A model generated the notes under the pieces. That model was not told where the DNA came from. It searched no databases and was given only the letters and a program-made list of their open reading frames with translations. The position numbers were made by a program, and so were the translations under genes. A DNA stretch of 64,000 nt from Candidatus Melainabacteria bacterium (GTDB lineage: Bacteria > Cyanobacteriota > Vampirovibrionia > Vampirovibrionales > JAJTHC01): assembly GCA_033763415.1 (NCBI GenBank), contig JANRKP010000024.1, positions 2,587-66,586 on the forward strand, in the 5' to 3' direction. Shown piece by piece: positions 8,155-37,330 of this stretch; position 1 is the first letter of the stretch, and each line of letters starts with the position of its first letter.

Positions 8155-8203
8155 AACATTTCAATCCAAATTTCATTAGAGAATTGAAGCTAAAACAAAG
8201 TCG

Positions 8204-9472: not shown

Positions 9473-9494
9473 CACAGGGGGGATCTCCAGACGG

Positions 9495-15900: not shown

Positions 15901-15927
15901 GAAAGAACTAAGAGCTGGAAATGCCAT
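12913..15927 (-). CDS. RTX (hemolysin-type calcium-binding nonapeptide repeat) protein, 1004 aa, predicted T1SS substrate
   Basis: Dozens of GGxGxDxUx repeats (GGAGNDTIFG, GGDGNDYING...). Repeat-free C-terminal region of about 110 aa, acidic and Gly-rich, typical of a T1SS secretion signal. Located directly upstream of the T1SS genes. Confidence 0.9.
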   Translation of the reverse strand: MAFPALSSFLTLLYSADAGVLSLLSQAFALGTFGTSGNDNLVGSSANDFIWGGAGNDSINGLGGDDILMGVEGGDSILGSDGQDYIFGGNLNDTINGGDGNDVIFSLDGNDNVNGGAGDDYANLGNGNDFIDAWTGNDTVLGGAGNDTVWGYEGNDSILGGAGNDNLFGEQGNDTIDGGDGNDLINGDDIQVFGGAGTGNDSLLGGAGNDTIIGGAGNDTIFGGDDDDSIVGNAGNDSISGGNGNDTVFGGEGNDTIFGDDGDDSIFGDAGNDSIYGGLGSDTIDGGDGNDYINGGTGNADDGDVLLGGNGNDTIDGWFGNDSIDGGADNDYILAHFGDDTILGGAGNDTIFGEAGNDSIDGGDGNDFINSDSGIGIPEADGNDTVDGGAGNDTILGEDGNDFIHGGDDDDSILGGAGNDTIYGDSGEGNDTIFGGTGNDNIFGEGGDDSIFGEDGNDTIYGGLGSDTIDGGDGNDYINGGTGDDDAGDVLLGGNGNDTIDGWFGNDSIDGGADNDYILAHFGNDTILGGTGNDTIFGEAGDDSILGGDGNDIINSDSGIGIPEADGNDTVDGGAGDDSILGEDGNDSLLGGEGSDTILGGAGNDYINGGTGNDAGDSLLGGSGNDTIDGWTGNDFIDGGLDNDYILGHFGDDTILGGEGNDTIYGEAGNDSIFGGDGNDFINSDNGIGIPQADGNDTVDGGAGNDTIIGEDGQDSLLGGTGDDSIDGGAGNDTILGGDGNDFIEGGSGADSIEGGAGNDSIYGEAGDDTILGDSGDDLIFGNGGNDSILGGEGNDTIHGGVDGDIIFGGADNDIVLGNGGADSINGDAGDDYLNGGAGNDTINGGEGSDILDGGSGNDLLNGGEGSDILFGGNGDDTINGGDGIFDLFVASNGDDELNGEAGNDAYWYEFSGGSLNNFEQTITDTAGGDDILFINNYTGDVSFSFVDADGDTFADDLLVTFDGTGNTISVIDNTVEHIILDDGGSAIVLENTDIVGGETFTLG
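13400..15350. repeat. Long imperfect tandem super-repeats inside the RTX gene, units of about 384 and 555 bp
   Basis: Near-identical DNA blocks (ggcttcaggaatgccgataccgctatcagagttgatga...) recur at about 13849, 14233 and 14788. Protein-level blocks of 128 to 185 aa are repeated three times. Confidence 0.8.
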
Positions 15928-21622: not shown

Positions 21623-22543
21623 ATGCAAACCGTGGATCTACGTTGGTTATCGGCAAAACAAACCCCACTCCCCCCAACAGCCGCCGTTAGTCCTTTTCAC
21701 ACCAATCATTCACTTCGGTGGGGGCAAGACCCACAACCGCAAGACTCACAACCGGAAGATCTGTCCGACCGGCTGATGCTCAGCGGGAAAGACGCCCAAA
21801 AAGCCGTCCAAAATGCGCTTCGCGCGCCGTTACTGAACGCAGATGGCACACTGCGCCTCAACGCCGCAGAAACCTTATTAATCACCCCCAAAACCATTCG
21901 CAAAGAGACCCTCAGCACCTTGAACGTGGCAGAATGGCAAACCGTGACCCAACAGGCGCTCAAACTAGCCCGACCCACCACAACCCAGGGCGGTGCGTCT
22001 CGCCTGGAACTATACCAAGACCTACAAGAGCATTACAAAACCCTGCTGGAAAAACGCACCGAGAGTAAAAGCCTTTTTGGGGGGTTGGGCATCGTGAGCG
22101 GCTTAATCACCGGGCTCAATCCAGCGATTGGTTCAACGGCCATTTTAATTGCGTTTGGCAACGCTATGTTGTTTGAGCGACTGGGCGCCCGCAATAATAC
22201 CCTTCGGCAGGCGGGTAATATTATTGCGCGCACCGCCCAAGAAACCCGCCAAAACTTGAGCATCGAAAAAATTGGGCTCGAATGGGATTTAGAAAAAGCC
22301 CAAGACTTGCAACAAAGCCTTGGCCAGTGGGAACTGAACGCTCGCCGCAAAGGCGAAAACGTGGATGAAACCTTCGTTACGCCAGAACTGGTCAATACGG
22401 TGTTACAGGCCACCGAGTCGCGCTTTTACGCCTCACTTCAACCCCACCTGGATCATCTGAACGCCGCCTTACCAGAACCTGTTCAACAACACCTGCAGCA
22501 CGAGGTAGGCATGGCTATTTTGGCGAAGAACCCTGCGCAATAA
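21623..22543 (+). CDS. hypothetical protein (306 aa)
   Basis: Intact ORF. Possible internal TM segment (LFGGLGIVSGLITGLNPAIGSTAILIAFGNAMLF). Confidence 0.4.
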   Translation: MQTVDLRWLSAKQTPLPPTAAVSPFHTNHSLRWGQDPQPQDSQPEDLSDRLMLSGKDAQKAVQNALRAPLLNADGTLRLNAAETLLITPKTIRKETLSTLNVAEWQTVTQQALKLARPTTTQGGASRLELYQDLQEHYKTLLEKRTESKSLFGGLGIVSGLITGLNPAIGSTAILIAFGNAMLFERLGARNNTLRQAGNIIARTAQETRQNLSIEKIGLEWDLEKAQDLQQSLGQWELNARRKGENVDETFVTPELVNTVLQATESRFYASLQPHLDHLNAALPEPVQQHLQHEVGMAILAKNPAQ

Positions 22544-22828
22544 CTTGTTCAGTCACAAAAAATTTGTCGGCCCTCCACGGATTGCGAACCCCTCGGGTGC
22601 AACACCATGTTCAAGTGCAAGCTATCATTACGCAGCCAACCGATTTTGTTACGCGCGTGTTTAAGGTACATTAAATAGCCGTATCTGTGGGTGTGATGCT
22701 TGATAATGCACTCGCAACCCCGTGTATGTTCCCCCGCCCCACGGCCTTGCCCACACCCGCGACAAGGCGACAAGGAGTTTTGGGTGTCTGTGTCAGCTCA
22801 TTTTTCTCGCCGTCAAGCTTCCGTCCGT

Positions 22829-24415
22829 ATGATTGAAACCGTAAACCCCGCCACTGGAGAACCGTTTGCACTCTACCCGATTGTCTCTGCCGAAGGGGTC
22901 CAGGAGATGGTTCGAGAGGCGCGGCGCGTTTTACCCGCCTGGAGAAACGCCTCTTTTGCGGTTCGGCAAATCATTCTCAACCGAACGGCAGAAGCACTCA
23001 TGGCCAATGCCGATGTGTTGGCGCGAAAAATATCGGAAGAAACCGGCAAGCCGCTTCGAGAAGCCTACGAAACGGATTTGTTGGCTGCCCTGGCCACGTT
23101 GCGCTATATGGCCCGCAACGGCCCTAAAACGCTCCGGGATCAATGGCTATGGAACTGGAAAACCCTGCTACTCGCCCGCACACATCGGGTTCGGCGGCTT
23201 CCTAAGGGGGTAGTGGCCCTCATTACACCGTGGAATTACCCACTGGCCATTGCCGTCAGTGGCATGGCAATGGCTTTAATGGCGGGCAATACGGTTATTG
23301 TTAAACCCAGCGAGCGCGCCCCCGGGGTTGTGCTGGATTTGGTCCGCATGGTGCAGCACGAACTGGCCCGCCGCGGCCTGCCGGAAACGATTGTTCAAAT
23401 TGCAACCGGCAACGGCAGTACCGGCCAAACCCTGTGCGAAACGATGAGCCAGCCCGACGGGGTGGATCACGTGCTCTTTACCGGAAGCAACCGTGTGGGT
23501 CGGCAGGTGCTGGCCCTGGCGCAACTGGCGGGCAAAACCGCCAGCCTGGAACTGGGCGGCAGTGACGCGATGATTGTCCTAGACGGGGTGGAAGATTTAG
23601 ACACCGTGGCCAGTTACGCCATATGGGGCCGTTTTGCCAACGCCGGGCAAAGCTGTGCCGCAGTAAAACGGCTGTTGGTGCATCGCGCGCTGTATGCCCG
23701 AATGCTGCACGTTTTGACTGAAAAAATGGCACGTTTTCACGTAGGCGATCCATTGGCGGCAACAACCCACATGGGACCACTGATTGCCGAAACGCAGTGC
23801 CAGCAGCTTAGCCTGCAAGTGGAAGATGCCACGGAACGCGGCGCACAACTTATTACGGGTGGTTTTCGGCTCAACCGCCCCGGATTCTTTTATGCGCCCA
23901 CCATTCTGGCGGATGTTCCGCTGGAATCGCGCGTTTTGCGAGAAGAGGTGTTTGGACCCGTACTGCCAGTGGTTCCGTTTGATACGGAAGAAGAGGCCAT
24001 TGCGCTGGCCAACCAAACCGCTTACGGCCTAACGGCCTGTGTTTTCGGTCCTCGCGTTCAGGCCTCACGCATAGCCCGGCGATTGCAGGCGGGAACGGTT
24101 GCCGTTAACGATGTTCCATTGGCGAACTATGGCTGGCCGATGGTGCCCTGGGGCGGCTGGAAGGAAAGCGGCCCTGGCTGGCGACACGGAACAATCGGCC
24201 TGGAGGAGCTGACACAAATCCAGGTGGTTACTGAACATTGGGGGCTTGCCGTTCCCTGTCTCAAACGGCCCCCGTGGCTGTTTGGCACCCATCCCTCGGA
24301 TGTAAATTTTTCTCATTACCTGTTGCAAACGTTTGGTTTGGGCAAATGGTTTACCCAACAAACGCCCGCCTTCCTCAAGGCCTTGTGGAAAAACCGATCT
24401 TCGAGCAGGCTGTAA
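22829..24415 (+). CDS. NAD(P)-dependent aldehyde dehydrogenase family protein with a C-terminal extension of about 70 aa
   Basis: ALDH motifs (VNPATGEP, ITPWNYPLAIAV, ELGGSDAMIVL, catalytic Cys region GQSCAAVKRLLV). ATG at 22829. Confidence 0.85.
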   Translation: MIETVNPATGEPFALYPIVSAEGVQEMVREARRVLPAWRNASFAVRQIILNRTAEALMANADVLARKISEETGKPLREAYETDLLAALATLRYMARNGPKTLRDQWLWNWKTLLLARTHRVRRLPKGVVALITPWNYPLAIAVSGMAMALMAGNTVIVKPSERAPGVVLDLVRMVQHELARRGLPETIVQIATGNGSTGQTLCETMSQPDGVDHVLFTGSNRVGRQVLALAQLAGKTASLELGGSDAMIVLDGVEDLDTVASYAIWGRFANAGQSCAAVKRLLVHRALYARMLHVLTEKMARFHVGDPLAATTHMGPLIAETQCQQLSLQVEDATERGAQLITGGFRLNRPGFFYAPTILADVPLESRVLREEVFGPVLPVVPFDTEEEAIALANQTAYGLTACVFGPRVQASRIARRLQAGTVAVNDVPLANYGWPMVPWGGWKESGPGWRHGTIGLEELTQIQVVTEHWGLAVPCLKRPPWLFGTHPSDVNFSHYLLQTFGLGKWFTQQTPAFLKALWKNRSSSRL

Positions 24416-24625: not shown

Positions 24626-24895
24626 ATGGGTGGTTTTCAGCCCACCAGTTATTCGTCGTCCGGTGGTTCCTTTATGGGACCCTCTCCGTTTGATTTGCAG
24701 CAAAGGCAGCACACAGGCCAAAGTGGCTTGGGTGTCGGCGCTTCGGCACAAGCCCAAGCGACCCTTGAACGCCAGGAAATGGAGAAAAAGCTTGAGGCTC
24801 TGGCCCAATTTCGGAGCCAGCAAAACGCAGACGGCGGTAATAACGCGCCCATTGGCCAAAATGGCGGTTGGCAATCACTCGATATCTCCTCCTAA
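24626..24895 (+). CDS. small Gly/Gln-rich protein (89 aa), paralog A
   Basis: gagagga RBS upstream. Shares MGG..., GPSPF.L and a C-terminal GGWQSLDISS motif with the ORF at 25265. Confidence 0.5.
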   Translation: MGGFQPTSYSSSGGSFMGPSPFDLQQRQHTGQSGLGVGASAQAQATLERQEMEKKLEALAQFRSQQNADGGNNAPIGQNGGWQSLDISS

Positions 24896-25264
24896 AATTG
24901 CGGCAAGAATTGGTTCGGGATGATTGGTTGGGGAGTGATAAGGAAGGCTTTTCAAAAGATTTGCTTAAGGCTGTCATCAGCGCGAGCACAAAAACGTTTA
25001 TGCAATTGTGCGATTGAGCACATCGCAAAGCAAAACACCCTGAGTCCAGACGTTATCTCGTATCAGTAGCGTATCAGCCATAGAAGTACTGTCTGCGCCA
25101 GGGTGATCTGAATGTATCGGTGTTGTTTTTTATACGGACATACGAATAAACGGTCGGAAAGTTGGCTACAGAAGGTTAGCTAATGGTTGCCAAGGGCGCC
25201 TTTACAAATCATTCATCTGCCAACAGCGCCACACACACATAGAGGCCATATTGGGGGGCAAATT

Positions 25265-25543
25265 ATGGGCGGTTACAACTGCACAACCAATTGTCAGGGA
25301 ACGGGCGTACAACCAGGCGGGCCATCTCCGTTTCAGCTCAAACGGGTCAACGGCAGCGAAGAGGGTGGAGCAGTTGGAGGCACCGGAGGAGCAGACCGAC
25401 TACAGAATGCTCAGCAACGGGTTTTCCAGGCAGAAACAAACCTGAACATGGCCCATTTAAGGCTACAACAGGTGCAGCAAGCAGCCCAAAGCAAACCCAT
25501 CCAAGAAGGGGGTCAGTGGCAAACGGTGGATACCGCCTCCTAG
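25265..25543 (+). CDS. small Gly/Gln-rich protein (92 aa), paralog B
   Basis: Begins MGGYNCTT, contains GPSPFQL, ends GGQWQTVDTAS. Paralogous to 24626..24895. Confidence 0.5.
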   Translation: MGGYNCTTNCQGTGVQPGGPSPFQLKRVNGSEEGGAVGGTGGADRLQNAQQRVFQAETNLNMAHLRLQQVQQAAQSKPIQEGGQWQTVDTAS

Positions 25544-25549
25544 TAGTTT

Positions 25550-26836
25550 TTATCTGGCATAAACAGGCTTTGTAGACTCCGCACAGTGCTGTTGTAACTG
25601 CTCAGCCATGCGCAATGCACTGTGGTTGGGCAAGCCAAGCTGGTTCCTCACCTGGCGAGAGGCCTCAGACGGATCTGCGGGCGGTTGCCGTAATTGCTGT
25701 AATAGTTCTGCTGCCAGTGTCTCTACTTTCGTATACCGCGAGAGTAACCCTTGGGCCACTGGCGCATTCCATTGCGTGGGATTGACGGGCGGGCCAGTGA
25801 GTAAGACGGGCTTGCCCAGCATCAACCCCTGCACCACCATCGAAGAATCCTGGGTCAGTACGGCGCTGGCCTGCGCTAAAGCCCGTTCGGTCGGCTGGTG
25901 TTTGGGCAGAATTTCAACCAAACCCGTCAGCCCCATGCGGTCAATCCACTGACGTTCGACAGCCCCGTCCTGGCTGGGATGCAGTGCCACCTGGAACTGG
26001 GCTCGTCCAGCCCATTGGCGGGCCAGGCTGCAAAATAACCCAAAAGCCTCTTCGTACCCAGCCCCATAGCCTCCAACCCATAACAGGCGGGGTGGGGGTT
26101 GCAGTGTTTGTGGGGTGCTCGGAGCGGTCAGGGGCGTCTGGGTCGCAGCATCCGTTGTCGCAGGGCTGGCGGATAGATTCTGTCGCTCCCAGCGATCGGC
26201 GGTGGGCTGGCCCACAACCGCAACCGGCATTTGGGGCAAGCATTGCCGTAGCCACGCGGCCTGCACCGCCGTGGGCACCCACCAGGCAGATAGGGTTTTG
26301 GCGAAGCGTTGGAACAACTCCGTTGTAGGATTGAGCGTGTAGCCATCGGTATAGCCCACCACGGGCGCCCCCTGGCGACGAAACAGACCGGAGAGCAATT
26401 GCTGAAAAGGAGAAACCACCCCGGTCATCACCACGGCCGGGTGCAGCCGCTGACAGAGGGTCGTCATTTGCTGCCACCAGGCGGCTTGCTGGGTTGGCGT
26501 GCCCGCCACAGGCGCATCGGGCAAGGAGACCTGATGCGGGTGTCCGGCCAACAGTCGGCTGGCCGTGCCCGTTGTCAGCAATGTGTAGGGAACGTGGGCT
26601 TGCGCCAGCCTGGCAATAACGGGCCGCAACGCCTCGGTTTCTCCGGCATCGTGCAGTAAAAAAGCCACCCCGGACGACTCAGCCACCGGCACAGATACTG
26701 TCGTTTGCCGATTGGCGCTTTTTGGCCAAGCACTATTTGGCCAAGCACCTCTTTGGCAGCCAGACGGGGGTATGGCTGTTGTATTTGTAGCTGTTGTATT
26801 TATAGCTGTTGTACTAAAGCAGAGCGTTGTACCCAT
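25550..26836 (-). CDS. hypothetical protein, possibly GT-B fold glycosyltransferase-like. The 5' end is uncertain because a repeat-rich region lies at 26700 to 26830.
   Basis: Long ORF. Weak resemblance to the Rossmann-like GT-B C-terminal half (KPVLLTGPPVNPTQ...). Direct DNA repeats at its 5' end. Confidence 0.35.
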   Translation of the reverse strand: MGTTLCFSTTAINTTATNTTAIPPSGCQRGAWPNSAWPKSANRQTTVSVPVAESSGVAFLLHDAGETEALRPVIARLAQAHVPYTLLTTGTASRLLAGHPHQVSLPDAPVAGTPTQQAAWWQQMTTLCQRLHPAVVMTGVVSPFQQLLSGLFRRQGAPVVGYTDGYTLNPTTELFQRFAKTLSAWWVPTAVQAAWLRQCLPQMPVAVVGQPTADRWERQNLSASPATTDAATQTPLTAPSTPQTLQPPPRLLWVGGYGAGYEEAFGLFCSLARQWAGRAQFQVALHPSQDGAVERQWIDRMGLTGLVEILPKHQPTERALAQASAVLTQDSSMVVQGLMLGKPVLLTGPPVNPTQWNAPVAQGLLSRYTKVETLAAELLQQLRQPPADPSEASRQVRNQLGLPNHSALRMAEQLQQHCAESTKPVYAR

Positions 26837-27267
26837 TCCAGGCCTGGCTTTCTACGTCACTGTCATCCATTGATTGTGCCTAAAACAAACAGCCTGCCCC
26901 GTACGTCGGCTGCAAACACTATAAACCCCGAAAATACCGGTTGGTGCTCGTACGCCAACACGACCACTTTAGAGTACGAACACTGCAACACGGACACTTT
27001 GGATGAAAGAAACGCTGCCCAGGGCACTGCTTTTCTTTTGATAGAACCACTTGCGAACAACATGCATTGACAACACGCATCCGCACGACGCCAAACAACA
27101 CCGATTGGCAATTGGAACCGGTTAGCCGTACAATAGTTTGAGCTTAAAAGGTAATGACACTTGAGTCATTCAGGCTGTTTCAAGGCACGGTTGCTACCTG
27201 TGCGTCCAGCGGGTAGTTGGTTTAAGAGGCACTGTATTGGTCGGCCATTAGTTTAGTTGAGGGTTCT

Positions 27268-28881
27268 ATGGTTCGTTATCCGCGGCGACGCCGTAAGCGT
27301 TCTCTGTTTAACAATTTTTACCTCAACCCCCGGGCTCAGTATGTGCTCACTATTTTTAGCGCCATGGGCCTTGCCGCGCTTATTTTTTCTGGCTTTTTAC
27401 TGTTTCGCTACTCCGACAGTGGGGATTTAATTGCCCGTGGCAAGCAACAAATGGCAGAGGGCAAGGTGGCTTGGGCGGCCCACACCTTTCAAATGTTGGT
27501 GCGTCGGGATCCCAACAACTATGAAGGCCATTTTTTACTCGGTCAGGCCTACCTGGAACTAGGCGACCGACGAAAAGGGGAACAGGAACTAAAAATTGCT
27601 TCCGCCCTTCGGTCCAAAAATCCGGGCGCCAAAGGCGGCAACGGGGTTGATATCGCCATGAGCAAGCTGGCCATGGCGCAAAATCGCTTTGATGAGGCCG
27701 AATCGGGCTTAAAACAGGCTTACCAGAAAAATCCCAACAACGTGGAAGTACAAGAGGCGCTCTTTGATCTTTACGAATACTGGGGAGACGCCGACAGTGC
27801 AACCTCTCCCCCCGATCTGGCCAACGCCATTCGCCACTACGACCAGGCATTGGCTTTCGCCACGGATTACCAATCCGAAGAATCGCTGAAAGAAAAACTG
27901 GTGAGTACCATGCGACAGCAGGCCACCGAACACTTTAACGCCAAGCAAACCGACGCCGGTTTGGCCGTGCTGAAAGAGGCCTTGCGCTACCGCTATGCGC
28001 CTGAAATTCTGGTGGAAATTGCCAACATCTACGAAAGCCACAATAAGCTGGATGACGCCATTGCCTGGTATCGCAAGGCGTTTGACGCCAACCCGGATAC
28101 CATCAGCCTGCGCCTGTCCAATATCCTCACGCGCAAAGGGCGCCTGTTACTGGATCAGAAAAAGCCACAAGAGGCAGAGCGCTACTTTGACGAAGCCCGA
28201 AAAATCAGCGAAATGACTCAAATCCCGCCCCACGTGCTCTATCCGGTCAAGGTCACCAAGGTCAATATTCAGGCGCAAGATCTGGAACCTCAAACGGGCG
28301 AATTTACCCCAGAGGTTTCTGCCCTGGTAGAGAACAAGGCGGATCGTCCGCTGAATTTTCTCGTGTTGAAGGCCACTTTTCTCTCCGGCGATCAGGTGCT
28401 GGATCAGGCATCGATGGTGGTTGCCTCGTTGAAAGAACCACTGGCCCCCAAAGGCCTGAGTGGCAGTTCGCGAAGCGTCTCGCTGAAAGCAGGCAGTAAG
28501 TCCAGTTTACACATGCTCAAAGAGGGCCAGTTGCAGGTTAAGCTGTCAGTGGCTTACAACGAGGGAGAATCTCCAGACTGGCAGGTAAAGGCCCTGCAGG
28601 AAGGGCAAATTCGAATGAGCATTCCAGCCGACACGGAAGAAGGCGAAGAAACCCCGGAAACCTCTCGCGGTAACGCTTCAGACGCAGTGGCCCCTTCTAC
28701 GCAGAGACGCAGCAATTCCACCAGCACAAACCCCCAAGGCGGTTCGGCCCGCACGCATCAAGGTGGTGGCGTCTCAAACCCATCGGGTTCAAACAGCAGC
28801 GCGCCGGTACCAACCGCGCCCGTGCCCAACGCGCCACCGACGGCGCCCACGCCACCCAGTCCGCCAAGGCAAACGACCTAA
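27268..28881 (+). CDS. TPR-repeat protein with an N-terminal membrane anchor and a P/S/T-rich C-terminal tail
   Basis: TM helix VLTIFSAMGLAALIFSGFLLF. Several TPR-like AxxY/LGxAY motifs. C-terminal APVPTAPVPNAPPTAPTPPSPP. Confidence 0.7.
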   Translation: MVRYPRRRRKRSLFNNFYLNPRAQYVLTIFSAMGLAALIFSGFLLFRYSDSGDLIARGKQQMAEGKVAWAAHTFQMLVRRDPNNYEGHFLLGQAYLELGDRRKGEQELKIASALRSKNPGAKGGNGVDIAMSKLAMAQNRFDEAESGLKQAYQKNPNNVEVQEALFDLYEYWGDADSATSPPDLANAIRHYDQALAFATDYQSEESLKEKLVSTMRQQATEHFNAKQTDAGLAVLKEALRYRYAPEILVEIANIYESHNKLDDAIAWYRKAFDANPDTISLRLSNILTRKGRLLLDQKKPQEAERYFDEARKISEMTQIPPHVLYPVKVTKVNIQAQDLEPQTGEFTPEVSALVENKADRPLNFLVLKATFLSGDQVLDQASMVVASLKEPLAPKGLSGSSRSVSLKAGSKSSLHMLKEGQLQVKLSVAYNEGESPDWQVKALQEGQIRMSIPADTEEGEETPETSRGNASDAVAPSTQRRSNSTSTNPQGGSARTHQGGGVSNPSGSNSSAPVPTAPVPNAPPTAPTPPSPPRQTT

Positions 28882-29039
28882 TAAACTCGAAGCGCACGGC
28901 AGCCTGTCACTATCCAACGTGTCCGCTATACAGCCAGTCTGGTCTGTTTTTTCGGTGTTAGCTGCTCAAGAATCGCTCCCACGTAAGCTCTGTCCAGAGA
29001 GAAGGGGCGAGAAAGTGACCTTGGATGTGTCAACACAAC

Positions 29040-29906
29040 CTAATAACGAACGTCAGACACGTCGTCATCACCCGGCAAACCAACCTGACGGCTTCGTATC
29101 GGCTTGCGGGCCGAAGAAAGTCCATCGGCAGACAGTTCTGGCCATACCGACTGGTGCGCCTGAGCCAAAAAGTGCCAATAAGTGATGTAGGAAGCGCCAA
29201 TCGCCAGTGGAAAACCTAAACAGGTCACCACGCCACCAATAATGGTGCAGCACAGGGCCACGGCCACCAAGCCATACAGCAGGCCCGCCCCCATCGTAAA
29301 CAGGCCCGCCAGCCAAATCCAACCGTAACACTTCAACGTCAGCGGAATCGTCTCCTGGAAACGCCACAGGTCTGCAAACCGACGATTTTCCGACGCATAC
29401 AAGAGGGGGGTGGTAAAAAACGGCCACGCCAGCAAGGCCACCAACGCAAACGGAATAAGTAGCAACAGTGCCAGGGGAGCCATCTCTCGGCCACCTGCTA
29501 TAAAAATTGCAATCATAGCCACGATTGGAACGATGGCCAGGGCCAAGGTTAGCAAAAACTGGTACGCAAACAGCTTTAGCCCATCCAGAAAAAAGGCAAA
29601 AAGCTTCTCAGACCAGCGAGGCGGGGGGGCCTCAAGCCCCTCTTGTCTCCAAGTGGCGCACGCGTGCCAGCAAAAACCCGCAATGGGAATGGCGGCCAAA
29701 ATATCGAACGGCAGGTGCAATAAATCAGGCACCTGTTCTAAAACTTTGCTATCAATTTTGTCGTGAAAAACGGCCGCAAAAATCACGGTAATGAGAATCG
29801 AGAGAATCAGCTTCACGTACTCAATGGCGCCAGGCACAAAAACTGCATCTACCCGGTGTGGTTCCTGCCACGCGTACAACAATCCCTGCTTAAAGTCGAT
29901 ATTCAT
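29040..29906 (-). CDS. hypothetical polytopic membrane protein
   Basis: Multiple hydrophobic helices. ATG at 29906 (MNIDFKQ). Confidence 0.5.
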   Translation of the reverse strand: MNIDFKQGLLYAWQEPHRVDAVFVPGAIEYVKLILSILITVIFAAVFHDKIDSKVLEQVPDLLHLPFDILAAIPIAGFCWHACATWRQEGLEAPPPRWSEKLFAFFLDGLKLFAYQFLLTLALAIVPIVAMIAIFIAGGREMAPLALLLLIPFALVALLAWPFFTTPLLYASENRRFADLWRFQETIPLTLKCYGWIWLAGLFTMGAGLLYGLVAVALCCTIIGGVVTCLGFPLAIGASYITYWHFLAQAHQSVWPELSADGLSSARKPIRSRQVGLPGDDDVSDVRY

Positions 29907-30187
29907 AGACCTACACCCGTTTCCGCCGCTATCCAATATGCATTCACACGCCCTAACCTACCATTTGTTTAAATTGTACTATAGCATCTCTTCTGACCAT
30001 GCGACGCGTTTTTAAAATCGGCTGTTTGTAGGTGAGGCTTCGTTTGAAGCAACCACCCATCATCACCAACTCAAGATCTGTCACCAACGAAATAAGGTTC
30101 CGGCAAACTGGCCAGAACCCTATTAAAGTTGAAAGATATCTCAATATCGCAACAAGGAAGCGTTCTCGCTCCGCAACCAAGCACGCT

Positions 30188-31435
30188 CTAGCGAGGCTTG
30201 ATGACTTCCATTGTTATTTTAGCCACCCCAGAGCCCAGCAAGCCAATGGCAGATGCAGCCCCACGAGAGAGATCCAGAATGCGATGGCCCGAATAAGGAC
30301 CACGGTCCGTAATTTCTACCACACAGGAACGGCCCGTGCGCTGATTGGTGACCTTGACCTTTGTGCCAAATGGCAGCGTTCGATGCGCAGCCGTTAAACC
30401 GTGCATGTCAAAGCGGCGGCCACTGGCTGTTCGACGGCCATGGAAGCCAGGACCGTACCAAGACGCCATTCCCACTTGTCGACGACCCGTTACCCGATAG
30501 GAGCCCGGATCCAAGAGTCCCTGAGCAGGCTTTGAAGCAGACAACGTACCAGCCTGAGGCTGTGCCTCGCTACGTTTCGCTGCGTCTGATGGCGTCGACT
30601 GGCTGTCATCCACATTCTTACCCGTAGAAGAAGACGGCTTTTGCGACGGAGCAACAACTTGTGCACCTTCTAGCGGCAGAACACCAAATGCTTGGCGAAT
30701 GTGGTTGACCCATACAAAACCTAACTTTTGAGGCGTCGTTCCCGCTTCCGTAGCGGTTTTAGCATCCAACAGCAACAGACGAACCGGCTCACCTGATGCG
30801 GTTGCACCATTAACCACTGCCTGAGTGGCCTTGGGTCCTTCAGGAAATACGCGAATCGCCGCAGGATCGTGACCTTGTTGAATGTAAAGCGCCAAACGAT
30901 GGGCCAGCACCTTGGCTCGGTTCAAGGGAGACAGGCCGTTTAGTGGCGAGCGAAAACGCACCACCTCTTGACGGTTAATGAAAACGCTGGCGTGCTGGCT
31001 GTTTTCCCAGGTATTGCGAACCCGAATCACAAAAGAGTCGTTATTGGGACTCGTCACCACGTAGCGGTTAGGCAATAGGGCAGGGTTTTCGGATGCCTCC
31101 GAAGAGGGGAAAGCTGTTTGCTTCTCATCCGTAGCGATAGAAGACTCTGCGGCACCGGCAGTAGACTGTCGGGCCGACTTGGAAGAAGTGGACGGCGTTG
31201 TTGCGCCATTTACCTTCCGCGCAGACTCTCTGCTGCTCACTGCTTCCGTGCGGTGTCTTTCAGTAGAAGACTCCAATGCATCAGACGACGGCCTTTCCGA
31301 GACGGAAGAGCGACCATTGACACCATCTACTGGCTTTTCAGCAGCCTGGGCCGACTGAATCCCAACTATTTTCAGTAAAACAAGCGTTAAAAGGGTAAAG
31401 AAAACAAAGTAGTTCTGTTGTTTTGAGCCGAACAA
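30188..31435 (-). CDS. RlpA-like (rare lipoprotein A family, DPBB domain) protein with a signal peptide and a Ser-rich linker
   Basis: C-terminal GMASWYGPGFHGRRTASGRRFDMHGLTAAHRTLPFGTKVKVTNQRTGRSCVVEITDRGPY is the RlpA double-psi beta-barrel signature. Confidence 0.75.
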   Translation of the reverse strand: MFGSKQQNYFVFFTLLTLVLLKIVGIQSAQAAEKPVDGVNGRSSVSERPSSDALESSTERHRTEAVSSRESARKVNGATTPSTSSKSARQSTAGAAESSIATDEKQTAFPSSEASENPALLPNRYVVTSPNNDSFVIRVRNTWENSQHASVFINRQEVVRFRSPLNGLSPLNRAKVLAHRLALYIQQGHDPAAIRVFPEGPKATQAVVNGATASGEPVRLLLLDAKTATEAGTTPQKLGFVWVNHIRQAFGVLPLEGAQVVAPSQKPSSSTGKNVDDSQSTPSDAAKRSEAQPQAGTLSASKPAQGLLDPGSYRVTGRRQVGMASWYGPGFHGRRTASGRRFDMHGLTAAHRTLPFGTKVKVTNQRTGRSCVVEITDRGPYSGHRILDLSRGAASAIGLLGSGVAKITMEVIKPR

Positions 31436-31584
31436 AGCTGATTCCTCCTTACTAGGGCTATCTTCGAGCCTGTTTTGGCTTGTTCAATAAAAAATTGAAC
31501 CCTTTATAACTACACCAAGCTCGTTGGAATTGCCAAGCCAAACTTTGAATGAATCCGCCCAACAGACGATTATTTTACGTTTGT

Positions 31585-33525
31585 TCATAAAACAGGCCAT
31601 AAAGCCAACATCCAGGAAAGGCCCGCACCCACTAAAAACGCTAACATCCAGGAAGCTAAAAGGGTAAAACTACTTTCTAGTGGGCCTCTTTCCTTCCAAA
31701 TGACTGAAGCAGAAGCGATACACGGAACAAACAAGGTGATAACCACCAAACTAACCAGTATTTGCAAGGGAGACATCCCGTCAGAAAGGCTGTAAAGGCC
31801 CGCCACACCAAAATCTCGCCGAACCATTCCCATAATAAACACCTGCCCCAGTTCGGAAGGCAGCCGCAAACCACTCGCCACCAGGGGCGAAAGCATCGTC
31901 TGCAAGAGCTGAAAGAGACCGGTTAACTGCAGCATCGATACAAGAAAAGAGCCCACAATAAACACTGGAAGCGTGTCCAACAGGAATGCTTTACTTCTCA
32001 GCCAGGTTTTTTTAAAGATATTACTAAGGTTTGGCAGCCGAAGCGGGGGTAAATCTAAAACCAGGGGCGCAGATTGACCAGGCAGTACGTACTGAAGCAC
32101 ACTGCCTATGACCGTAAAAACCAGAAACAGCACCAGTAAAAACAGTAGCCAAATGCCAAAGCCACCTACTTTTGCCATTAAGCCCACAATAACAGCCAAT
32201 TGCGCCGAACAAGGAATCGTAATCGCCAGAAGAACAGAGGCAATGGTTCGTTCGCGTTGCGTGGTTAGTAGCCGTGTAGCAATGCTCGCCATGGTGACAC
32301 AGCCAAGCCCCAGTATCATTGGGATAATTGCCCGACCATTCAACCCAACTCGTCTCAAGAAGCCATCCATGAGCACAGCCACTCTCGGCAACACACCACT
32401 ATCCTCTAACAGGGATAGATACAAATAAAAACCAACAACCAGGGGAAGCATAACGCCTAGCACGTACTGAGGCGTCATCGTCAGCAGGCCGAACTCACCG
32501 ACCAACAGTGTATAAACAAAGCTATCTTTGGGAAAAAATATTTCCGCGTAGGCTTGAATAGCAGGAATGACGGTTGCGAGCAGAATTTTATTTTCTAAAA
32601 AATCCACCAAATCGCCCGCCACCCAAACACCCACCACCTGGTACAGCGTGAGTAAAATGAGAATCAGCGCCAAAAAGCCGCCCACAGGGCTGAGGAGCTG
32701 CGCCCCTAGCCAGGCAGAAAGACTGCGAGAGGAGGTTAAACTGTGTGTGCTTAACACCTGAGATAACACCACATTAACGTAATGCCGACGCAGCCCATAA
32801 AGATGCAACCGCTGTGCAGGATTTGATTTTTCAACAGCACGTAAGCCTTCTCCTGTTGGAGAACCGGGGGTTGTATTTCCGGCTGAAGCCTTTTCTAGAG
32901 AGTGAATTACCCGTTCTTTAACACCGCCTTGAGTGGCAACCACAGGAATAACGGGCACTCCCAAGCGCTCAGAGAGTGTCTCTACATCAATCTTCTGGCC
33001 ACTATTCTCAAGTTCATCCATTTGGTTAAGCAATACAATGAGCGGCTTTCCCCAATCAATAAGCTGTTGCGTCAAAAACAGATCCCGAGCCAGCGTCACA
33101 GCGGATACCACATTAATTACCTGTATGGCTTTCCATAGAGCGGCCTCTGCTACACGTTCTTCATCTGTATCGCCAGCCAAACCATAGACTCCAGGGGTAT
33201 CTTCCACCCTCCAAGGGGTGGTTAAGGCAGAATCTTCCATCGTGCCCCAGGGAACATCGAGCGTGGTGCCCGGAAAATTTGAAACCTGCGTGTATTGCCC
33301 CGTCAGTTGGTGGAAAACGACCGATTTGCCAACGTTTGGGTTACCGACCAACACCAGCGAGCGAAAACGTTCAGACAAAGGGACTTCCTCGTCGTTTGGA
33401 CTCTGATTTATTGTTGAATTGCGCATTTCCGGTCTATCCACATCCGGGCCGTACAGTAGCAAGTCTGGTTCCATCTGGCTAGATGGTGGCAACGGCTCCC
33501 CCACAGGAATAGGATAGTGTGCCAT
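31585..33525 (-). CDS. feoB: Ferrous iron transport protein B
   Basis: N-terminal G domain (GNPNVGKS, DTPG) and the polytopic FeoB membrane domain. The N-terminal extension before the G1 motif is about 55 aa. Confidence 0.9.
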   Translation of the reverse strand: MAHYPIPVGEPLPPSSQMEPDLLLYGPDVDRPEMRNSTINQSPNDEEVPLSERFRSLVLVGNPNVGKSVVFHQLTGQYTQVSNFPGTTLDVPWGTMEDSALTTPWRVEDTPGVYGLAGDTDEERVAEAALWKAIQVINVVSAVTLARDLFLTQQLIDWGKPLIVLLNQMDELENSGQKIDVETLSERLGVPVIPVVATQGGVKERVIHSLEKASAGNTTPGSPTGEGLRAVEKSNPAQRLHLYGLRRHYVNVVLSQVLSTHSLTSSRSLSAWLGAQLLSPVGGFLALILILLTLYQVVGVWVAGDLVDFLENKILLATVIPAIQAYAEIFFPKDSFVYTLLVGEFGLLTMTPQYVLGVMLPLVVGFYLYLSLLEDSGVLPRVAVLMDGFLRRVGLNGRAIIPMILGLGCVTMASIATRLLTTQRERTIASVLLAITIPCSAQLAVIVGLMAKVGGFGIWLLFLLVLFLVFTVIGSVLQYVLPGQSAPLVLDLPPLRLPNLSNIFKKTWLRSKAFLLDTLPVFIVGSFLVSMLQLTGLFQLLQTMLSPLVASGLRLPSELGQVFIMGMVRRDFGVAGLYSLSDGMSPLQILVSLVVITLFVPCIASASVIWKERGPLESSFTLLASWMLAFLVGAGLSWMLALWPVL

Positions 33526-33528
33526 AGT

Positions 33529-33837
33529 TCAACGTCTCTCTGGTTGTGGCTGAACAAAAATATGATCACACAACGCTCGACCCAAAGCCACTTCCATAGG
33601 CCCCATACGAAGCACCAACGGGCCACCGGCGGGCAATTTGGCCTGTATGAGAAACTGAGAGGCAGGCAAAATACCAAACTGCAACGCCTGGAGCTGAACC
33701 TCCGTGGTTTCAATGCGGTTTACACAAACCGTTTGCCCTACCAAACAGTCTGATAGGCAAAAAACAGACTCTTTCGGCGCTTCTGGCGCAGAAAATGCCG
33801 GACTCGGAGGCGATTCGTCGCAGTTTGACAACATCAT
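33529..33837 (-). CDS. feoA: FeoA-like small SH3-fold protein. The start is probably internal or non-ATG.
   Basis: LSDCLVGQTVCVNRIE...GILPASQFLIQAKLPAGGPLVLRMGPMEVALGRALCDHIFV matches the FeoA pattern. Immediately 5' of feoB. Confidence 0.6.
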   Translation of the reverse strand: MMLSNCDESPPSPAFSAPEAPKESVFCLSDCLVGQTVCVNRIETTEVQLQALQFGILPASQFLIQAKLPAGGPLVLRMGPMEVALGRALCDHIFVQPQPERR

Positions 33838-35684
33838 TTGATATTCAGGTTTTCCTTGCGAAGGCGAATATTTTTGGGTGTCACCTCCATCAGCTCGTCT
33901 GGACCAATAAAGTCCAAACCAAACTCCAGGGTGAGTTCCACCGGCTTATCCAGGCCATCCAGCACCTCTGCACCGGCGCTACGCATGTTGGTTAGCTTTT
34001 TAGCCTTGCACACGTTAATGACCAAGTCTTGCTGGCGGCTGTGCTCGCCCACCACCATTCCGCGATAGACCGTCGTTTTAGGATCAATGAAAAAGACCCC
34101 GCGATCTTCCAGGCCTTTAATCGCGTAAGCCGTTGCCTCGCCTGGCTCGTGGGCAATCAGGGCCCCGTTTCGCATCGTGCCAACCTCACCCACCCACGGC
34201 ATATAGCCGCTAAAGGAGTGAGTCATCATTCCCTGGCCGCGGGTTAGACGGATAAATTCGCTCCTAAAGCCCAAAAGTCCGCGCGAAGGTGCCTTAAACG
34301 TAATGAGCGTTCGGCCTCCTTCGGCCTGCATATTCTGGAGTTCCGCCTTTCGTCTGGATAAGCGCTCGATACAGGTACCGGCAACCTCTTCAGGCACATC
34401 CAAAACCAACTCCTCAAACGGCTCGTGCACTTCGCCATTCAAGGTTTGCGTCAATACTTCGGGCTTACTGACCTGAAACTCATAGCCTTCCCGACGCATG
34501 GTTTCAATCAGGATGGTGAGGTGCAACTCGCCACGACCGCTGACAATAAAACATTCCGTGGTGGGGCCGTCTTCCACCCGAAGACTGACGTTGGTCTTGG
34601 CCTCTCGCCACAAGCGATCTTTCAGCTGGCGCGAGGTGACAAACTGACCCTCGCGGCCCGCAAGCGGACTATTGTTGACCGAGAACGTCATTTTCAGCGT
34701 GGGTTCTTCTATCGTAATCATCGGACGAGGCTCTGGCGTGTCAGTCGCCGTGAGAGTTTCGCCAATTTGGGCATCCGGCAGACCGGCCACGGCCACAATA
34801 TCGCCCGCTGAAGCCGATTCCACTTCCAGCCGTTTGAGACCGTGAAAGCCAAACAGCTTGCTCACACGGTGTTGGCCCACCGAACCATCTCGACGAACGA
34901 GACTGACGGTTTGTCCTACGTTGATGGTGCCGCGATGAATCCGTCCAATAACAATTCGGCCCAGATAGTCATTGTAATCCAACGTGGAGACCTGAATTTG
35001 CAGCGGACGGTTTTGTTCGCCCGGTGGTGGCGGTACATGCGTAAGCATGGCCTGAAACAGCGGTGAGAGGTCCTCAAACGTGCTGAGGTCCGGCGTTAAA
35101 GAGGCCGTTCCCTGAAGCCCACAGGCATACACCACGGGAAAGTGCAGCTGATCTTCGTCAGCTCCCAGCTCAATGAATAAATCCAGCACCCGATCGACCG
35201 CTCTGGAGGGATCCGCAGCGGGCCGATCCATTTTGTTGACAACCACCAGAATATTGAGCCCCAACGACAATGCTTTTCTCAACACAAAGCGGGTTTGTGG
35301 CATTGGGCCTTCTACTGCATCCACCACCAGCAAGGCGCCATCTACCATGGTCAGCACGCGCTCCACCTCGCCAGAAAAATCGGCGTGGCCCGGCGTATCC
35401 AAAATGTTGATTTTTGTGTCCTGGTAAAACACGGCGGTGTTTTTGGCCAAAATGGTAATGCCGCGCTCGCGCTCCAGGTCGTGAGAATCCATGGCGCGTT
35501 CCGTCACAGACTCATTGTCTCGGTAAACGCCGCTTTGCCGAAATAGACTATCGACCAGCGTCGTTTTACCATGATCTACGTGGGCAATAATGGCCACGTT
35601 ACGAATGGACGCATTGACCGTAGCATCCGCAAACGGAGTAGGGGGCGAGGGCAATTGAGACATCATCACGGCGGCGGTATCCAA
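33834..35684 (-). CDS. typA: Translational GTPase TypA/BipA
   Basis: [23 protein letters not shown] and EF-G-like domains. The ORF-track start is TTG. A likely ATG lies at 35666. The stop overlaps the feoA start by 4 bp. Confidence 0.9.
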
Positions 35685-37330
35685 TCTGGGGGGGGGTAAC
35701 GGCAGGAACTCACAACGGGTAAGGAATGCAAACTTTAGGACTTTAATCTTTAGGACTTTAAATATCGAGTATCAGTCAGTAAACACAAGCAGGTGGGCAA
35801 CAAAACTGGCGCAAATAGCATGCGGACCGATTAAAGGAGCGTAGCCCCCTCAACAACCGGTCACAATCCAACCGGTACAGAGAGAACCAGCCGAACGCAG
35901 GACGTGCGAATGGGCATTCGCTGTTGACACAGTGAAACCCAACACGCCGCATTTATTTCCTGTTGAACCCAGTTGTACGAATAAATATTGCAGTTTGGGC
36001 CAAGGGTTGGCTATGAATGGGGGCGGAGGGTTTTTACATTGTGATTGAAGCACAAACAAACCAAAAGGCGGCAAACAAAAACCCTGCAACAAATAAGCTG
36101 CAAATAAAAAGCCCGACGGATGAAACATACATACCGCCGGGTCGAATCAACTGGCACTCTGAAACACAATTGAAGAGAAGGAGAGAGATGAGATAAAAAC
36201 AAGAAGCGGAAATCAGAAAAAATCAATCAAACTCTGGCAGTCAGTAGCCATCGCCTTTTGTAGAAGGCAGAGAAACCACCACCGACTTGAAAGACTATTC
36301 CCGAGCGGGAACGCCACTGCTGGCAGACAAACTTAAAAAACTGGTGTCGGGCTTCCACTTGGGCCAACTTGTTGGGCTAAGCAGTTGGGCTAGCACTGGT
36401 AGCCTGTGGAATGACAAAGCGGAACCAAAATACTGACGAACGATCTCAAAAGTTGGCCTCAAAAGTTGGCCTCACAACAGGGCCTGTTTGGCCTGCAGGA
36501 CTGACGAACGATCGGTCTGCGGGTTCAGTGTGCTCGCCATCTGGCTTGCTGTCCCCCACATAAACGGTATCGGTCGCCTCCTCCATTTGCTTGAACTGAA
36601 TCGTCTATATGTAACAAAACGTAAATAGATGCGTCTCATTTCCCGGTTTTTTGGGCAGAGGGGACCCAGAACGATGGGTTTTTCTGTGAGTGTTTGTAAC
36701 AATTTAGAGCACGCATGAGGCATTGGCGGCACAATGCCTCTTTCATCATGTTTTTTGACTGTGTTACCATCCCATACAATTCAACAAATTTTGTGAAAAG
36801 AAATCTGTTGAAAGAAATGGCTGAACTGTTTTTGGACGCCTGTTTTTTACTTTGTTTTCGGGATTGCCCCTGGAAACGGAAAGTGTTGTAACCCACCATG
36901 CCGAAGTCGATTCTACACCTCGCAAAACCATTTCGACGACGACGACGATCGCTGACACCGGAATCGGTACAGGGTTACAAGCTTCCTTGCCAGGTTTTAC
37001 GGGGATCGCACACCATTTGCCACTCGGGTTAAACCCCTAAGCGGCACGCCCAACTAGAGCAGCAGTCTGCACGAACGGGCCAATCCCCCTAACACAGCTT
37101 CCTCCCTGACACCGATTTTGGGTTAGGGTGTGTTTTGCTATGGATGCTTCTCCCACTGCACCGAATCCCCATCTTGCGTCTCGGGGGGGGGGGTAACAGA
37201 CCCCCATACAAAGCGGCACACCCAAAGCCAAAACACAATGTCCCTCTCCCAAGTCTCTCGTCCACGCCTTTCCAGCCCGGCATTTGTACCCTGACCCGAA
37301 TTGTATTGCGCAAAGGATTGTTAACTCGCC
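35685..37330. other. Long non-coding region with internal direct repeats and flanking G-homopolymer tracts
   Basis: No ORF longer than 105 aa. Tandem tcaaaagttggcctca x2 and ctgacgaacgatc x2 at 36430 to 36520. A G9 tract at 35688..35696 and a G11 tract at 37183..37193, each followed by taac. Confidence 0.5.

What the first reader, a model, noticed from the sequence alone, without database searches (positions are those of the whole stretch)
24626..25543. Tandem pair of paralogous small Gly/Gln-rich proteins of unknown function
Two ORFs of about 90 aa lie 370 bp apart on the same strand. Both begin MGG, share a GPSPF.L motif and end in a GG(Q)WQ(S/T)(L/V)D(I/T)(S/A)S motif. Each has a Gln/Ala-rich, probably helical, middle region and its own RBS. 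Paired divergent paralogs of small proteins often mark toxin/immunity, bacteriocin-like or regulatory peptide modules.
Basis: seen in the sequence. Interest (0 to 1): 0.55.

Follow-up and report, generated by a model that had tools for sequence, protein, structure and literature searches.

The report
Orphan pair of small disordered proteins
Two neighbouring genes in an uncultured Melainabacteria (non-photosynthetic cyanobacterial relative) genome encode related ~90-residue, mostly floppy proteins with one central helix and matching end motifs; they look real but have no relatives in any database searched, and nothing ties them to a toxin, bacteriocin or other known system.

Summary
ORF1 (24626-24895, 89 aa) and ORF2 (25265-25543, 92 aa) lie 369 bp apart on the + strand. 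Both start MGG, share GPSPF(D/Q)L, and end PI..G.WQ(S/T)(L/V)D..S. The similarity exceeds composition (0/2000 and 0/5000 shuffles), but it sits only in the first ~25 and last ~15 residues; the centres are not significantly alike. It exists at protein level only: 15 of 27 identical residues use different codons. That points to an old duplication under purifying selection, so to real genes.

AlphaFold gives each protein one long helix (40-72 and 42-74) in an otherwise disordered chain. There is no signal peptide or membrane segment.

There is no hit in Pfam, NCBIfam, PADLOC, PHROGs, PDB or Rfam. No homologue appears among the 5.8-billion-cluster or 1.84-billion-representative protein sets, nor in genome, metagenome, viral, plasmid or phage DNA. 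The neighbouring 428-aa gene is also an orphan, and the closest relatives share only 75% BipA identity and no synteny.

The toxin/immunity or bacteriocin reading is not supported. My best guess, with low confidence, is small partner-binding adaptor proteins whose conserved ends dock on a shared partner. Secreted substrates are the main rival. Interest is low to moderate.

The parts
24626..24895 (+). ORF1: 89-aa protein (PGAP SFZ03_08065, P0002). Gly 16%, Gln 15%, Ser 13%, pI 5.05, GRAVY -0.75, no Cys.
   Evidence: (best coding log-odds in this frame, 0.227, inside the range of true genes)
25265..25543 (+). ORF2: 92-aa paralogue (PGAP SFZ03_08070, P0001). Gly 16%, Gln 16%, pI 6.5, 2 Cys.
   Evidence: (frame +0 is the best of six, 0.071)
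24626..24697 (+). ORF1 conserved N-terminal module: MGGF...GPSPFDL (residues 1-24). The GPSPFDL codons lie at 24677-24697.
   Evidence: (the only DNA repeat between the genes; its two differences are synonymous)
24743..24841 (+). ORF1 predicted central helix (residues 40-72). It is polar and charged, with a weak heptad pattern.
24848..24892 (+). ORF1 conserved C-terminal module: PIGQNGGWQSLDISS (residues 75-89).
24896..25264 (.). 369-bp spacer between the paralogues. It scores as non-coding in all six frames, has no Rfam hit, and folds no better than shuffles (z = -0.34).
25265..25339 (+). ORF2 conserved N-terminal module: MGGY...GPSPFQL (residues 1-25). The GPSPFQL codons lie at 25319-25339.
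25388..25486 (+). ORF2 predicted central helix (residues 42-74) with a clean heptad. The a/d positions read G-L-A-V-A-L-A-L-V-A, 90% hydrophobic against 22% at other positions.
25496..25540 (+). ORF2 conserved C-terminal module: PIQEGGQWQTVDTAS (residues 78-92). AlphaFold2 draws a low-confidence beta-hairpin at 78-81 and 84-87.

Best explanation
These are two real protein-coding genes, anciently duplicated and restricted to this lineage, in a Melainabacteria MAG related to Vampirovibrionales. Each encodes a soluble protein of about 9.5 kDa that is largely disordered. The architecture is: a Gly/Ser-rich N-terminus with a conserved MGG(F/Y)...GPSPF(D/Q)L motif, a Gly-rich linker, one helix of about 33 residues, a second flexible linker, and a conserved C-terminal PI..G.WQ(S/T)(L/V)D..S motif.

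Shown: the paralogy, selection at protein level, the architecture, the lack of export or membrane signals, and the lack of any detectable homologue.

Inferred: only the two short terminal motifs have been held constant while the helix has drifted. The proteins therefore most likely act as small adaptor or regulatory binders. The two ends would dock as short linear motifs on a shared partner. The central helix would act as a spacer or oligomerisation element (a coiled coil in ORF2). The two copies would offer alternative versions of the same interaction. They are not a toxin-antitoxin, bacteriocin or RiPP module.
For: - Paralogy beyond composition.
- Similarity only in reading frame +0 of both genes (98 against at most 72 for any other frame pair), with no significant DNA-level similarity in the genes or flanks.
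- 15 of 27 identical residues use different synonymous codons, and third positions differ at 60/89 against 45 and 41 for first and second.
- The annotated frame is the best of six by codon log-odds for both genes.
- Only this frame is open in both copies.
- PGAP called both genes.
- Same architecture in two independent AlphaFold2 runs, a single long helix in the same place and the rest below pLDDT 60.
- Heptad pattern in the ORF2 helix.
- Maximum 19-residue hydropathy is 0.04 and -0.25, so no signal peptide or membrane helix.
- Conservation is concentrated at the termini, at 44% and 47% identity against 18% in the centre.
Against: - There are only two sequences, so 'conserved motif' rests on a single comparison.
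- There is no expression or translation evidence.
- The coding score of ORF2 is marginal (0.071, about the 5th-10th percentile of true genes).
- No sigma-70-like promoter or terminator was found.
- No partner is identifiable. The neighbours are an unrelated aldehyde dehydrogenase and orphan genes.
- The ORF1 helix is not clearly amphipathic.
- Conserved extreme termini would fit export signals equally well.
- The adaptor mechanism is inference from architecture alone.
Confidence: 0.45

Rival explanations
1. Secreted substrates without a Sec signal, exported through a type I, type IV or flagellar type III pathway. They would resemble harpin-like or effector-like proteins of a predatory or epibiotic bacterium. 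The conserved C-terminal Asp-x-x-Ser end would serve as the export signal.
For: - The composition (Gly/Gln/Ser-rich, acidic, disordered, one helix, ORF1 Cys-free) resembles small harpins such as Hpa1 (own knowledge).
- The strictly conserved extreme C-terminus matches where type I and type IV signals lie (own knowledge).
- A complete type I secretion set (OEP, HlyD, ABC) and a 1004-aa RTX protein sit at 6283-15927.
- Vampirovibrio, a relative at about 72% BipA identity, is proposed to deliver proteins to algal prey through a type IV system (PMC4451040).
Against: - The type I locus is 9-18 kb away on the other strand and has its own RTX cargo. That cargo's C-terminus (…GGETFTLG) is unlike the pair's.
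- The residues after the Asp are polar, not hydrophobic as in the protease/HasA type I motif (own knowledge).
- The C-termini are acidic, not Arg-rich as in VirB/D4 signals (own knowledge).
- There are no type IV or flagellar genes in the window.
- ORF2 has two Cys.
Confidence: 0.15
2. Precursors of short signalling or antimicrobial peptides. Cleavage after the Gly-Gly that precedes the C-terminal motif would release WQSLDISS and QWQTVDTAS, as in double-glycine pheromones, bacteriocins and long-leader RiPPs.
For: - Both proteins have G-G immediately before the conserved (Q)WQ(S/T)(L/V)D..S tail.
- Long-leader precursors with GG cleavage (the Nif11 and NHLP families) are common in cyanobacteria and often occur as tandem paralogues (own knowledge).
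Against: - No match to the Nif11/NHLP or bacteriocin models in NCBIfam or Pfam.
- Positions -4 and -7 relative to GG are Gln and Pro/Lys, not the hydrophobic residues of the double-glycine leader consensus (direct reading plus own knowledge).
- No C39 peptidase domain in any ABC exporter of the window.
- No modification enzymes adjacent.
- In RiPP families the leader is conserved and the core varies, whereas here the middle of the would-be leader is the variable part.
Confidence: 0.07
3. Stress-protective hydrophilin or LEA-like disordered proteins that shield macromolecules during desiccation or osmotic stress.
For: - Small, Gly-rich (16%), hydrophilic and disordered, with a helix that could form on drying.
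- They lie downstream of an aldehyde dehydrogenase and near DnaJ and cyclophilin genes.
Against: - Mean hydrophilicity is 0.75, below the hydrophilin criterion of more than 1 (criterion from own knowledge).
- No KGG, CsbD or LEA family match.
- Bulk protectants do not usually need sharply conserved terminal motifs around a drifting centre.
Confidence: 0.1
4. Non-functional or untranslated ORFs: a decaying duplicate pair, or annotation artefacts.
For: - No homologue anywhere.
- Marginal coding score for ORF2.
- No promoter or terminator match.
- Low-complexity composition.
Against: - Amino-acid motifs are retained although synonymous sites are near saturation, and the similarity is confined to one reading frame.
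- Both ORFs are intact and of the same length, with the start and stop in the same register of the alignment.
- The spacer between them scores clearly non-coding, unlike the ORFs.
Confidence: 0.1
5. A toxin-antitoxin or toxin-immunity pair.
For: Two small adjacent genes on the same strand.
Against: - The two are paralogues of each other. Known pairs are non-homologous and usually overlap or abut, whereas here the gap is 369 bp.
- No PADLOC, Pfam or NCBIfam hit.
- No membrane segment for an immunity protein.
Confidence: 0.02

Closest known systems
Taxonomically restricted (orphan) small intrinsically disordered proteins of bacteria
   Same: No detectable homologue outside one genome. Short, low-complexity and disordered. 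Located among other lineage-specific genes: the 428-aa neighbour is also an orphan, and the 306-, 215- and 294-aa ORFs nearby have no family match.
   Different: Unlike many orphans, this one has an internal control for reality: an old paralogue that keeps two motifs under protein-level selection.
WXG100 / ESAT-6-like proteins (tandem pairs of ~100-aa paralogues, type VII secretion)
   Same: A tandem pair of paralogous helical proteins of about 90-100 aa with a conserved Trp and no Sec signal.
   Different: - No PF06013 match even at E = 0.1.
- One helix is predicted, not a helix-turn-helix hairpin.
- The Trp sits in G-x-W-Q seven or eight residues from the C-terminus, not in a central W-x-G turn.
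- No type VII genes in the window.
Small harpins (e.g. Xanthomonas Hpa1/HpaG)
   Same: Small, acidic, Gly/Gln-rich and disordered, with one coiled-coil-prone helix and few or no Cys (composition; harpin features from own knowledge).
   Different: A compositional resemblance only. No sequence match, no type III secretion system seen, a different phylum, and ORF2 has two Cys.
FlgM-type anti-sigma factors and IF1-type ATPase inhibitors (small disordered proteins that fold on their partner)
   Same: About 90 aa, disordered when free, with a single helix-forming region and action by binding. The weakest-possible PDB profile hits were to IF1 and a talin dimerisation helix (E = 1.1-2.8).
   Different: Those hits are not significant. 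There is no PF04316 (FlgM) match, and no flagellar or ATP synthase genes nearby.
Double-glycine leader peptides and Nif11/NHLP RiPP precursors
   Same: Tandem small paralogues in a cyanobacterial relative, with a Gly-Gly just before a short C-terminal segment.
   Different: No model match, no C39 transporter, a non-consensus leader, and a conservation pattern opposite to the usual one.

Membership tests
WXG100 / ESAT-6 (PF06013) | Sequence match to the family profile | tested here: not met
   Pfam hmmscan at E <= 0.1 returned 0 families for both proteins.
WXG100 / ESAT-6 (PF06013) | Helix-turn-helix hairpin with a central W-x-G turn | tested here: not met
   AlphaFold2 predicts one long helix (40-72 and 42-74). 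The only Trp is at residue 82 or 85, in G-x-W-Q near the C-terminus. The models are low confidence.
Class II bacteriocin / double-glycine peptide module | N-terminal leader with the consensus L-x3-E-L-x2-I-x-G-G | tested here: not met
   Direct reading: no such leader. The residues before the C-terminal GG are P-I-G-Q-N and P-I-Q-E.
Class II bacteriocin / double-glycine peptide module | Nearby ABC exporter with an N-terminal C39 peptidase domain | tested here: not met
   The three ABC exporters of the window show no Peptidase_C39 domain, even when their N-terminal 200 aa are scanned at E <= 1. The rest of the genome was not available.
Class II bacteriocin / double-glycine peptide module | Adjacent small membrane immunity protein | tested here: not met
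   No ORF with a hydrophobic segment lies next to the pair. Both proteins have a maximum KD19 of 0.04 or less.
Nif11 / NHLP long-leader RiPP precursors | Match to the NCBIfam/TIGRFAM leader models | tested here: not met
   NCBIfam scan at E <= 1 returned 0 families.
Toxin-antitoxin / anti-phage defence system | Match to a known toxin, antitoxin or defence protein model | tested here: not met
   PADLOC returned 0 families at E <= 1 for both proteins and both neighbours. Pfam and NCBIfam returned none.
Toxin-antitoxin / anti-phage defence system | Two non-homologous partners in a tightly coupled bicistron | tested here: not met
   The two proteins are homologous to each other and are separated by 369 bp of non-coding DNA.
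Hydrophilins / LEA-like proteins | Gly above 6% and mean hydrophilicity index above 1 | tested here: not met
   Gly is 16%, which meets the first criterion, but -GRAVY is 0.75 for both, below 1. The criterion is recalled from the literature.
FlgM anti-sigma-28 factor (PF04316) | Profile match, and a flagellar or sigma-28 gene context | tested here: not met
   No Pfam or NCBIfam match. No flagellar genes in the window.
Type I secretion substrate | Uncleaved C-terminal secretion signal recognised by a cognate ABC/MFP/OMP system | not testable with these tools
   A type I system lies at 6283-11762. The signal has no reliable sequence definition. The pair's C-termini do not resemble that of the adjacent RTX cargo.
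Real protein-coding gene | Evidence of translation | not testable with these tools
   Only indirect evidence: frame-specific conservation, synonymous divergence and codon log-odds.

The most novel reading that the evidence does not exclude
The pair founds an undescribed family of Sec-independent exported proteins in predatory or epibiotic Vampirovibrionia. Either they are effectors delivered to a eukaryotic or bacterial prey, or they are precursors whose conserved C-terminal (Q)WQ(S/T)(L/V)D..S peptide is released after the Gly-Gly as a signal.

For the effector version, the conserved Met-Gly start, followed in ORF2 by Cys6, could be a host N-myristoylation/palmitoylation site. ORF1 has Pro at the critical position and does not fit.

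The evidence does not exclude this: the extreme termini are conserved, the body is disordered, there is no homologue, and the lineage has a proposed prey-injection lifestyle. Nothing positively supports it either.
Probability: 0.07. Interest if true: 0.6.

Novelty: new member of a known kind. Interest (0 to 1): 0.2.

Why it matters
If these genes are expressed, they add one more lineage-specific small-protein family to a poorly sampled, uncultured branch of the cyanobacterial phylum. They are also a tidy example in which a within-genome paralogue gives the only available evidence that an orphan small ORF is under protein-level selection.

As it stands, the pair opens no long-standing question and points to no new mechanism. 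Its practical value is a negative result: this is not a toxin/immunity, bacteriocin or defence module. It would matter more only if the conserved termini turned out to be export or processing signals in a predatory bacterium.

Tried and rejected
**Homologue searches, all empty apart from self hits**
- Profile of the pair against 5.8 billion protein clusters.
- Full HMMER against 1.84 billion representatives. The one extra hit, P0003, is a 1549-aa repeat protein matched over a Gly/Ser/Thr-rich repeat and was judged spurious.
- Back-translated motif scans of GTDB genomes, JGI metagenomes and IMG/VR.
- A three-motif degenerate DNA pattern against the metagenomes. The same pattern was validated on the window.
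- tblastn against plasmids and phages.
- tblastn against the window itself, which found no third copy.

**Family and structure libraries, all empty**
- Pfam, NCBIfam, PADLOC, PHROGs, PDB sequences and Rfam.

**Synteny**
- The adjacent aldehyde dehydrogenase finds only relatives at 30-42% identity, in unrelated phyla.
- The adjacent 428-aa gene is itself an orphan.
- The two closest BipA relatives examined (74-75% identity) have entirely different neighbourhoods. No orthologous locus could be examined.
- The look-up of encoding contigs has no record of ORF1.

**Other checks**
- Relatedness to other orphan ORFs in the window: none (z < 3).
- A structured RNA or repeat in the spacer: none.
- Promoter and terminator scan: nothing above chance.
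- A fold search was not run, because both models have mean pLDDT of about 57-58 and consist of one helix, so matches would be meaningless.
- The upstream TTG start for ORF2 (25187) was rejected on coding score, and because homology starts exactly at the ATG.
- The antisense ORFs over ORF1 (24649-24852 and 24672-25028) were rejected. They score lower, and no antisense ORF of 40 aa or more lies over the ORF2 coding region.

Full report
**1. What is there**

The window (52.2% G+C) comes from a 74-kb contig of a 'Candidatus Melainabacteria bacterium' MAG.

- ORF1 is 24626-24895 (+), 89 aa. Its ATG is the first possible start after an in-frame stop.
- ORF2 ends at 25543 (+). The mechanical ORF list starts it at a TTG (25187), but the homology with ORF1 begins exactly at the ATG at 25265.
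- The 78-nt extension scores as non-coding (log-odds -0.16, GC3 0.38), and PGAP also annotates 92 aa (P0001). I therefore take 25265-25543.
- The genes are 369 bp apart.

**2. Is the similarity more than chance?**

Yes.

- BLASTP with composition adjustment gives 29% identity over the full length, E = 4e-6.
- The Smith-Waterman score is 98, against 32 +/- 5.8 for shuffles of ORF2 (0/2000).
- It is 98 against 35 +/- 7.4 when regional composition is preserved by shuffling within three blocks (0/5000).

The signal is sharply localised.

- Identity is 11/25 in the N-terminal module and 7/15 in the C-terminal module.
- The centre is only 9/49, and the centres alone score no better than shuffles (24 against 27 +/- 5).
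- There is no third copy in the window.

**3. Are they genes?**

There are no expression data, so the evidence is indirect, but it is consistent.

- The similarity exists only when both are read in the annotated frame. That frame pair scores 98, the next-best pair (an antisense echo) scores 72, and all others score 48 or less. blastn finds nothing significant in the genes or flanks.
- Of the 27 identical residues, 15 are encoded by different synonymous codons. Third codon positions differ at 60 of 89 aligned codons, against 45 and 41 at positions 1 and 2.
- The only DNA repeat between the genes is the GPSPF-coding 15-mer, and its two differences are both synonymous.
- Together these indicate an old duplication with purifying selection on the peptide.
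- Codon log-odds trained on 15 long ORFs of the window, most of them with a Pfam match, make the annotated frame the best of six for both genes.
- ORF1 scores 0.227, typical of true genes.
- ORF2 scores 0.071, which is marginal: about the 5th-10th percentile of true genes and about the 96th of wrong frames.
- The spacer is negative in all frames.
- Shine-Dalgarno-like purine runs precede both genes, but this genome uses them irregularly.
- No sigma-70-like promoter or intrinsic terminator was found. That is weak negative evidence in a lineage with unknown promoter rules.

**4. What the proteins look like**

- Both are about 9.5 kDa and hydrophilic (GRAVY -0.75). Each is 16% Gly and 15-16% Gln, with pI 5.05 and 6.5.
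- Maximum 19-residue hydropathy is 0.04 or less. There is therefore no Sec/Tat signal peptide and no membrane helix.
- AlphaFold2 was run twice, with each paralogue in turn as target. Mean pLDDT is 57-58.
- Each model has one long helix at the equivalent place (40-72 and 42-74), with block-mean pLDDT up to 77-80 in the helix core.
- ORF1 adds a short helix right after GPSPF (21-30). ORF2 adds a low-confidence beta-hairpin over PIQE-GG-QWQT.
- The ORF2 helix has a clean heptad. Its a/d positions read G,L,A,V,A,L,A,L,V,A, 90% hydrophobic against 22% elsewhere. The ORF1 helix is charged and only weakly periodic.
- The common plan is: conserved N-motif, flexible Gly linker, variable helix, flexible linker, conserved C-motif.

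**5. Relatives and context**

No homologue was found by any route.

- The pair's profile against 5.8 billion clusters returned only itself.
- Full HMMER against 1.84 billion representatives returned itself plus a spurious repeat protein.
- Motif scans of GTDB genomes, JGI metagenomes and IMG/VR were empty.
- A strict three-motif DNA pattern found nothing in the metagenomes, although it finds both genes in the window.
- tblastn against plasmids and phages was empty.
- No Pfam, NCBIfam, PADLOC, PHROGs, PDB or Rfam match was found.

This isolation is partly a property of the genome, not only of the pair.

- The convergent 428-aa neighbour is also an orphan.
- The upstream 306-aa ORF and several others nearby have no family.
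- The adjacent aldehyde dehydrogenase has no relative above 42% identity.
- The most conserved gene nearby, BipA, is only 75-76% identical to its nearest relatives. It is about 72% identical to Vampirovibrio-type genomes.
- The neighbourhoods of the closest relatives are unrelated.
- At that distance a fast-evolving disordered 90-mer would not be recognisable. Orphan status therefore cannot be read as de novo origin.

The flanking genes give no functional hint.

- On the same strand upstream are the 306-aa orphan and an aldehyde dehydrogenase, which ends 210 bp before ORF1.
- Downstream is the convergent 428-aa orphan, whose stop lies 6 bp from the ORF2 stop, then a TPR protein.
- A type I secretion set and an RTX protein lie 9-18 kb upstream on the other strand.

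**6. How it most likely works**

Shown: a real paralogous pair; a disordered architecture with one helix; conservation confined to two terminal motifs; no classical export or membrane signal.

Inferred: selection on two short terminal segments around a drifting helical spacer is the signature of short-linear-motif binding. My best guess is small adaptor or regulatory proteins that dock on a common partner through their ends and use the helix as a spacer or oligomerisation element. I put about 0.3 on that specific mechanism and about 0.8 on 'real genes'. The combined statement gets 0.45.

The main rival, at 0.15, is Sec-independent secretion. Conserved extreme C-termini, harpin-like composition, a type I system in the window, and the proposed type IV-mediated predation of Vampirovibrio (PMC4451040) all fit loosely. 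Against it, the RTX cargo's C-terminus is unlike the pair's, and the known signal rules, recalled from memory, are not met.

A peptide-precursor reading (0.07) is attractive because Gly-Gly directly precedes the conserved tail. It fails the leader consensus, the family models and the C39-transporter test.

The remaining readings are hydrophilin (0.1), spurious ORFs (0.1) and toxin-antitoxin (0.02). Each is argued in the Rival explanations section of this report.

**7. Comparison with known families, novelty and verdict**

The pair works like, at most, the broad class of small disordered binders such as FlgM and IF1. It is a member of none of the families considered: every membership test that could be run was not met.

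It is best filed as a new, two-member, taxonomically restricted small-protein family. That is a common kind of thing in under-sampled lineages.

The toxin/bacteriocin suggestion is not supported. Interest is low to moderate (0.2): a specialist would not be surprised, and no open question becomes testable. A residual 7% reading as a new exported effector or signal family would be interesting if true.

Noticed in passing
window 6283-15927 (- strand): A complete type I secretion cluster: an outer-membrane efflux protein (6283-8154), a HlyD-type fusion protein (8204-9508) and an ABC exporter (9495-11762, no C39 domain detected). A PpiC-type rotamase follows (11726-12607), then a 1004-aa RTX protein with 32 nonapeptide-repeat matches (12913-15927).
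   Followed up: partly
window 21623-22543 (+): A 306-aa ORF with no family match. It carries a central Gly-rich hydrophobic stretch (LFGGLGIVSGLITGLNPAIGSTAILIAFGNAMLF) that looks like a glycine-zipper membrane hairpin, flanked by Gln-rich helical regions. It is not related to the small pair (z < 1).
   Followed up: partly
window 25550-26836 (-): A 428-aa ORF, annotated as 378 aa in NCBI, convergent with ORF2 with the two stops 6 bp apart. It has no homologue other than itself in 5.8 billion protein clusters and no Pfam match. Its 5' end contains two 15-nt tandem repeats (26721-26757 and 26771-26813) that encode a TTAINTTATNTTAI-like stretch. That makes the longer start doubtful.
   Followed up: partly
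window 22700-24415 (+): An aldehyde dehydrogenase (Pfam E = 3e-130). Its best relatives in GTDB species representatives are only 30-42% identical and come from unrelated phyla (Patescibacteria, Chloroflexia, Myxococcota, Legionella). It also has a C-terminal extension of about 60 aa beyond the Pfam domain. This may indicate horizontal acquisition or a very isolated lineage.
   Followed up: no
L081 and L082 (closest BipA relatives) compared with window 27000-36000: Gene order around BipA is not conserved at all between this MAG and its closest sequenced relatives at 74-75% BipA identity. Comparative genomics by synteny is therefore not possible for this region.
   Followed up: yes
window 24649-24852 and 24672-25028 (- strand): Two antisense ORFs (67 and 118 aa) overlap ORF1. 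They have lower coding scores than the sense frame and no counterpart of 40 aa or more opposite ORF2. They are probably shadows of the sense gene.
   Followed up: partly
window 3122-4783 (+), 37135-39333 (+), 44635-45765 (-), 46651-47358 (+), 49526-50185 (+): Several further long ORFs have no Pfam match at E <= 1e-5. The window as a whole is rich in lineage-specific genes.
   Followed up: no
window 54427-54501 (+): A single tRNA-Val (GAC). It is the only Rfam or ARAGORN hit in the 64-kb window.
   Followed up: yes
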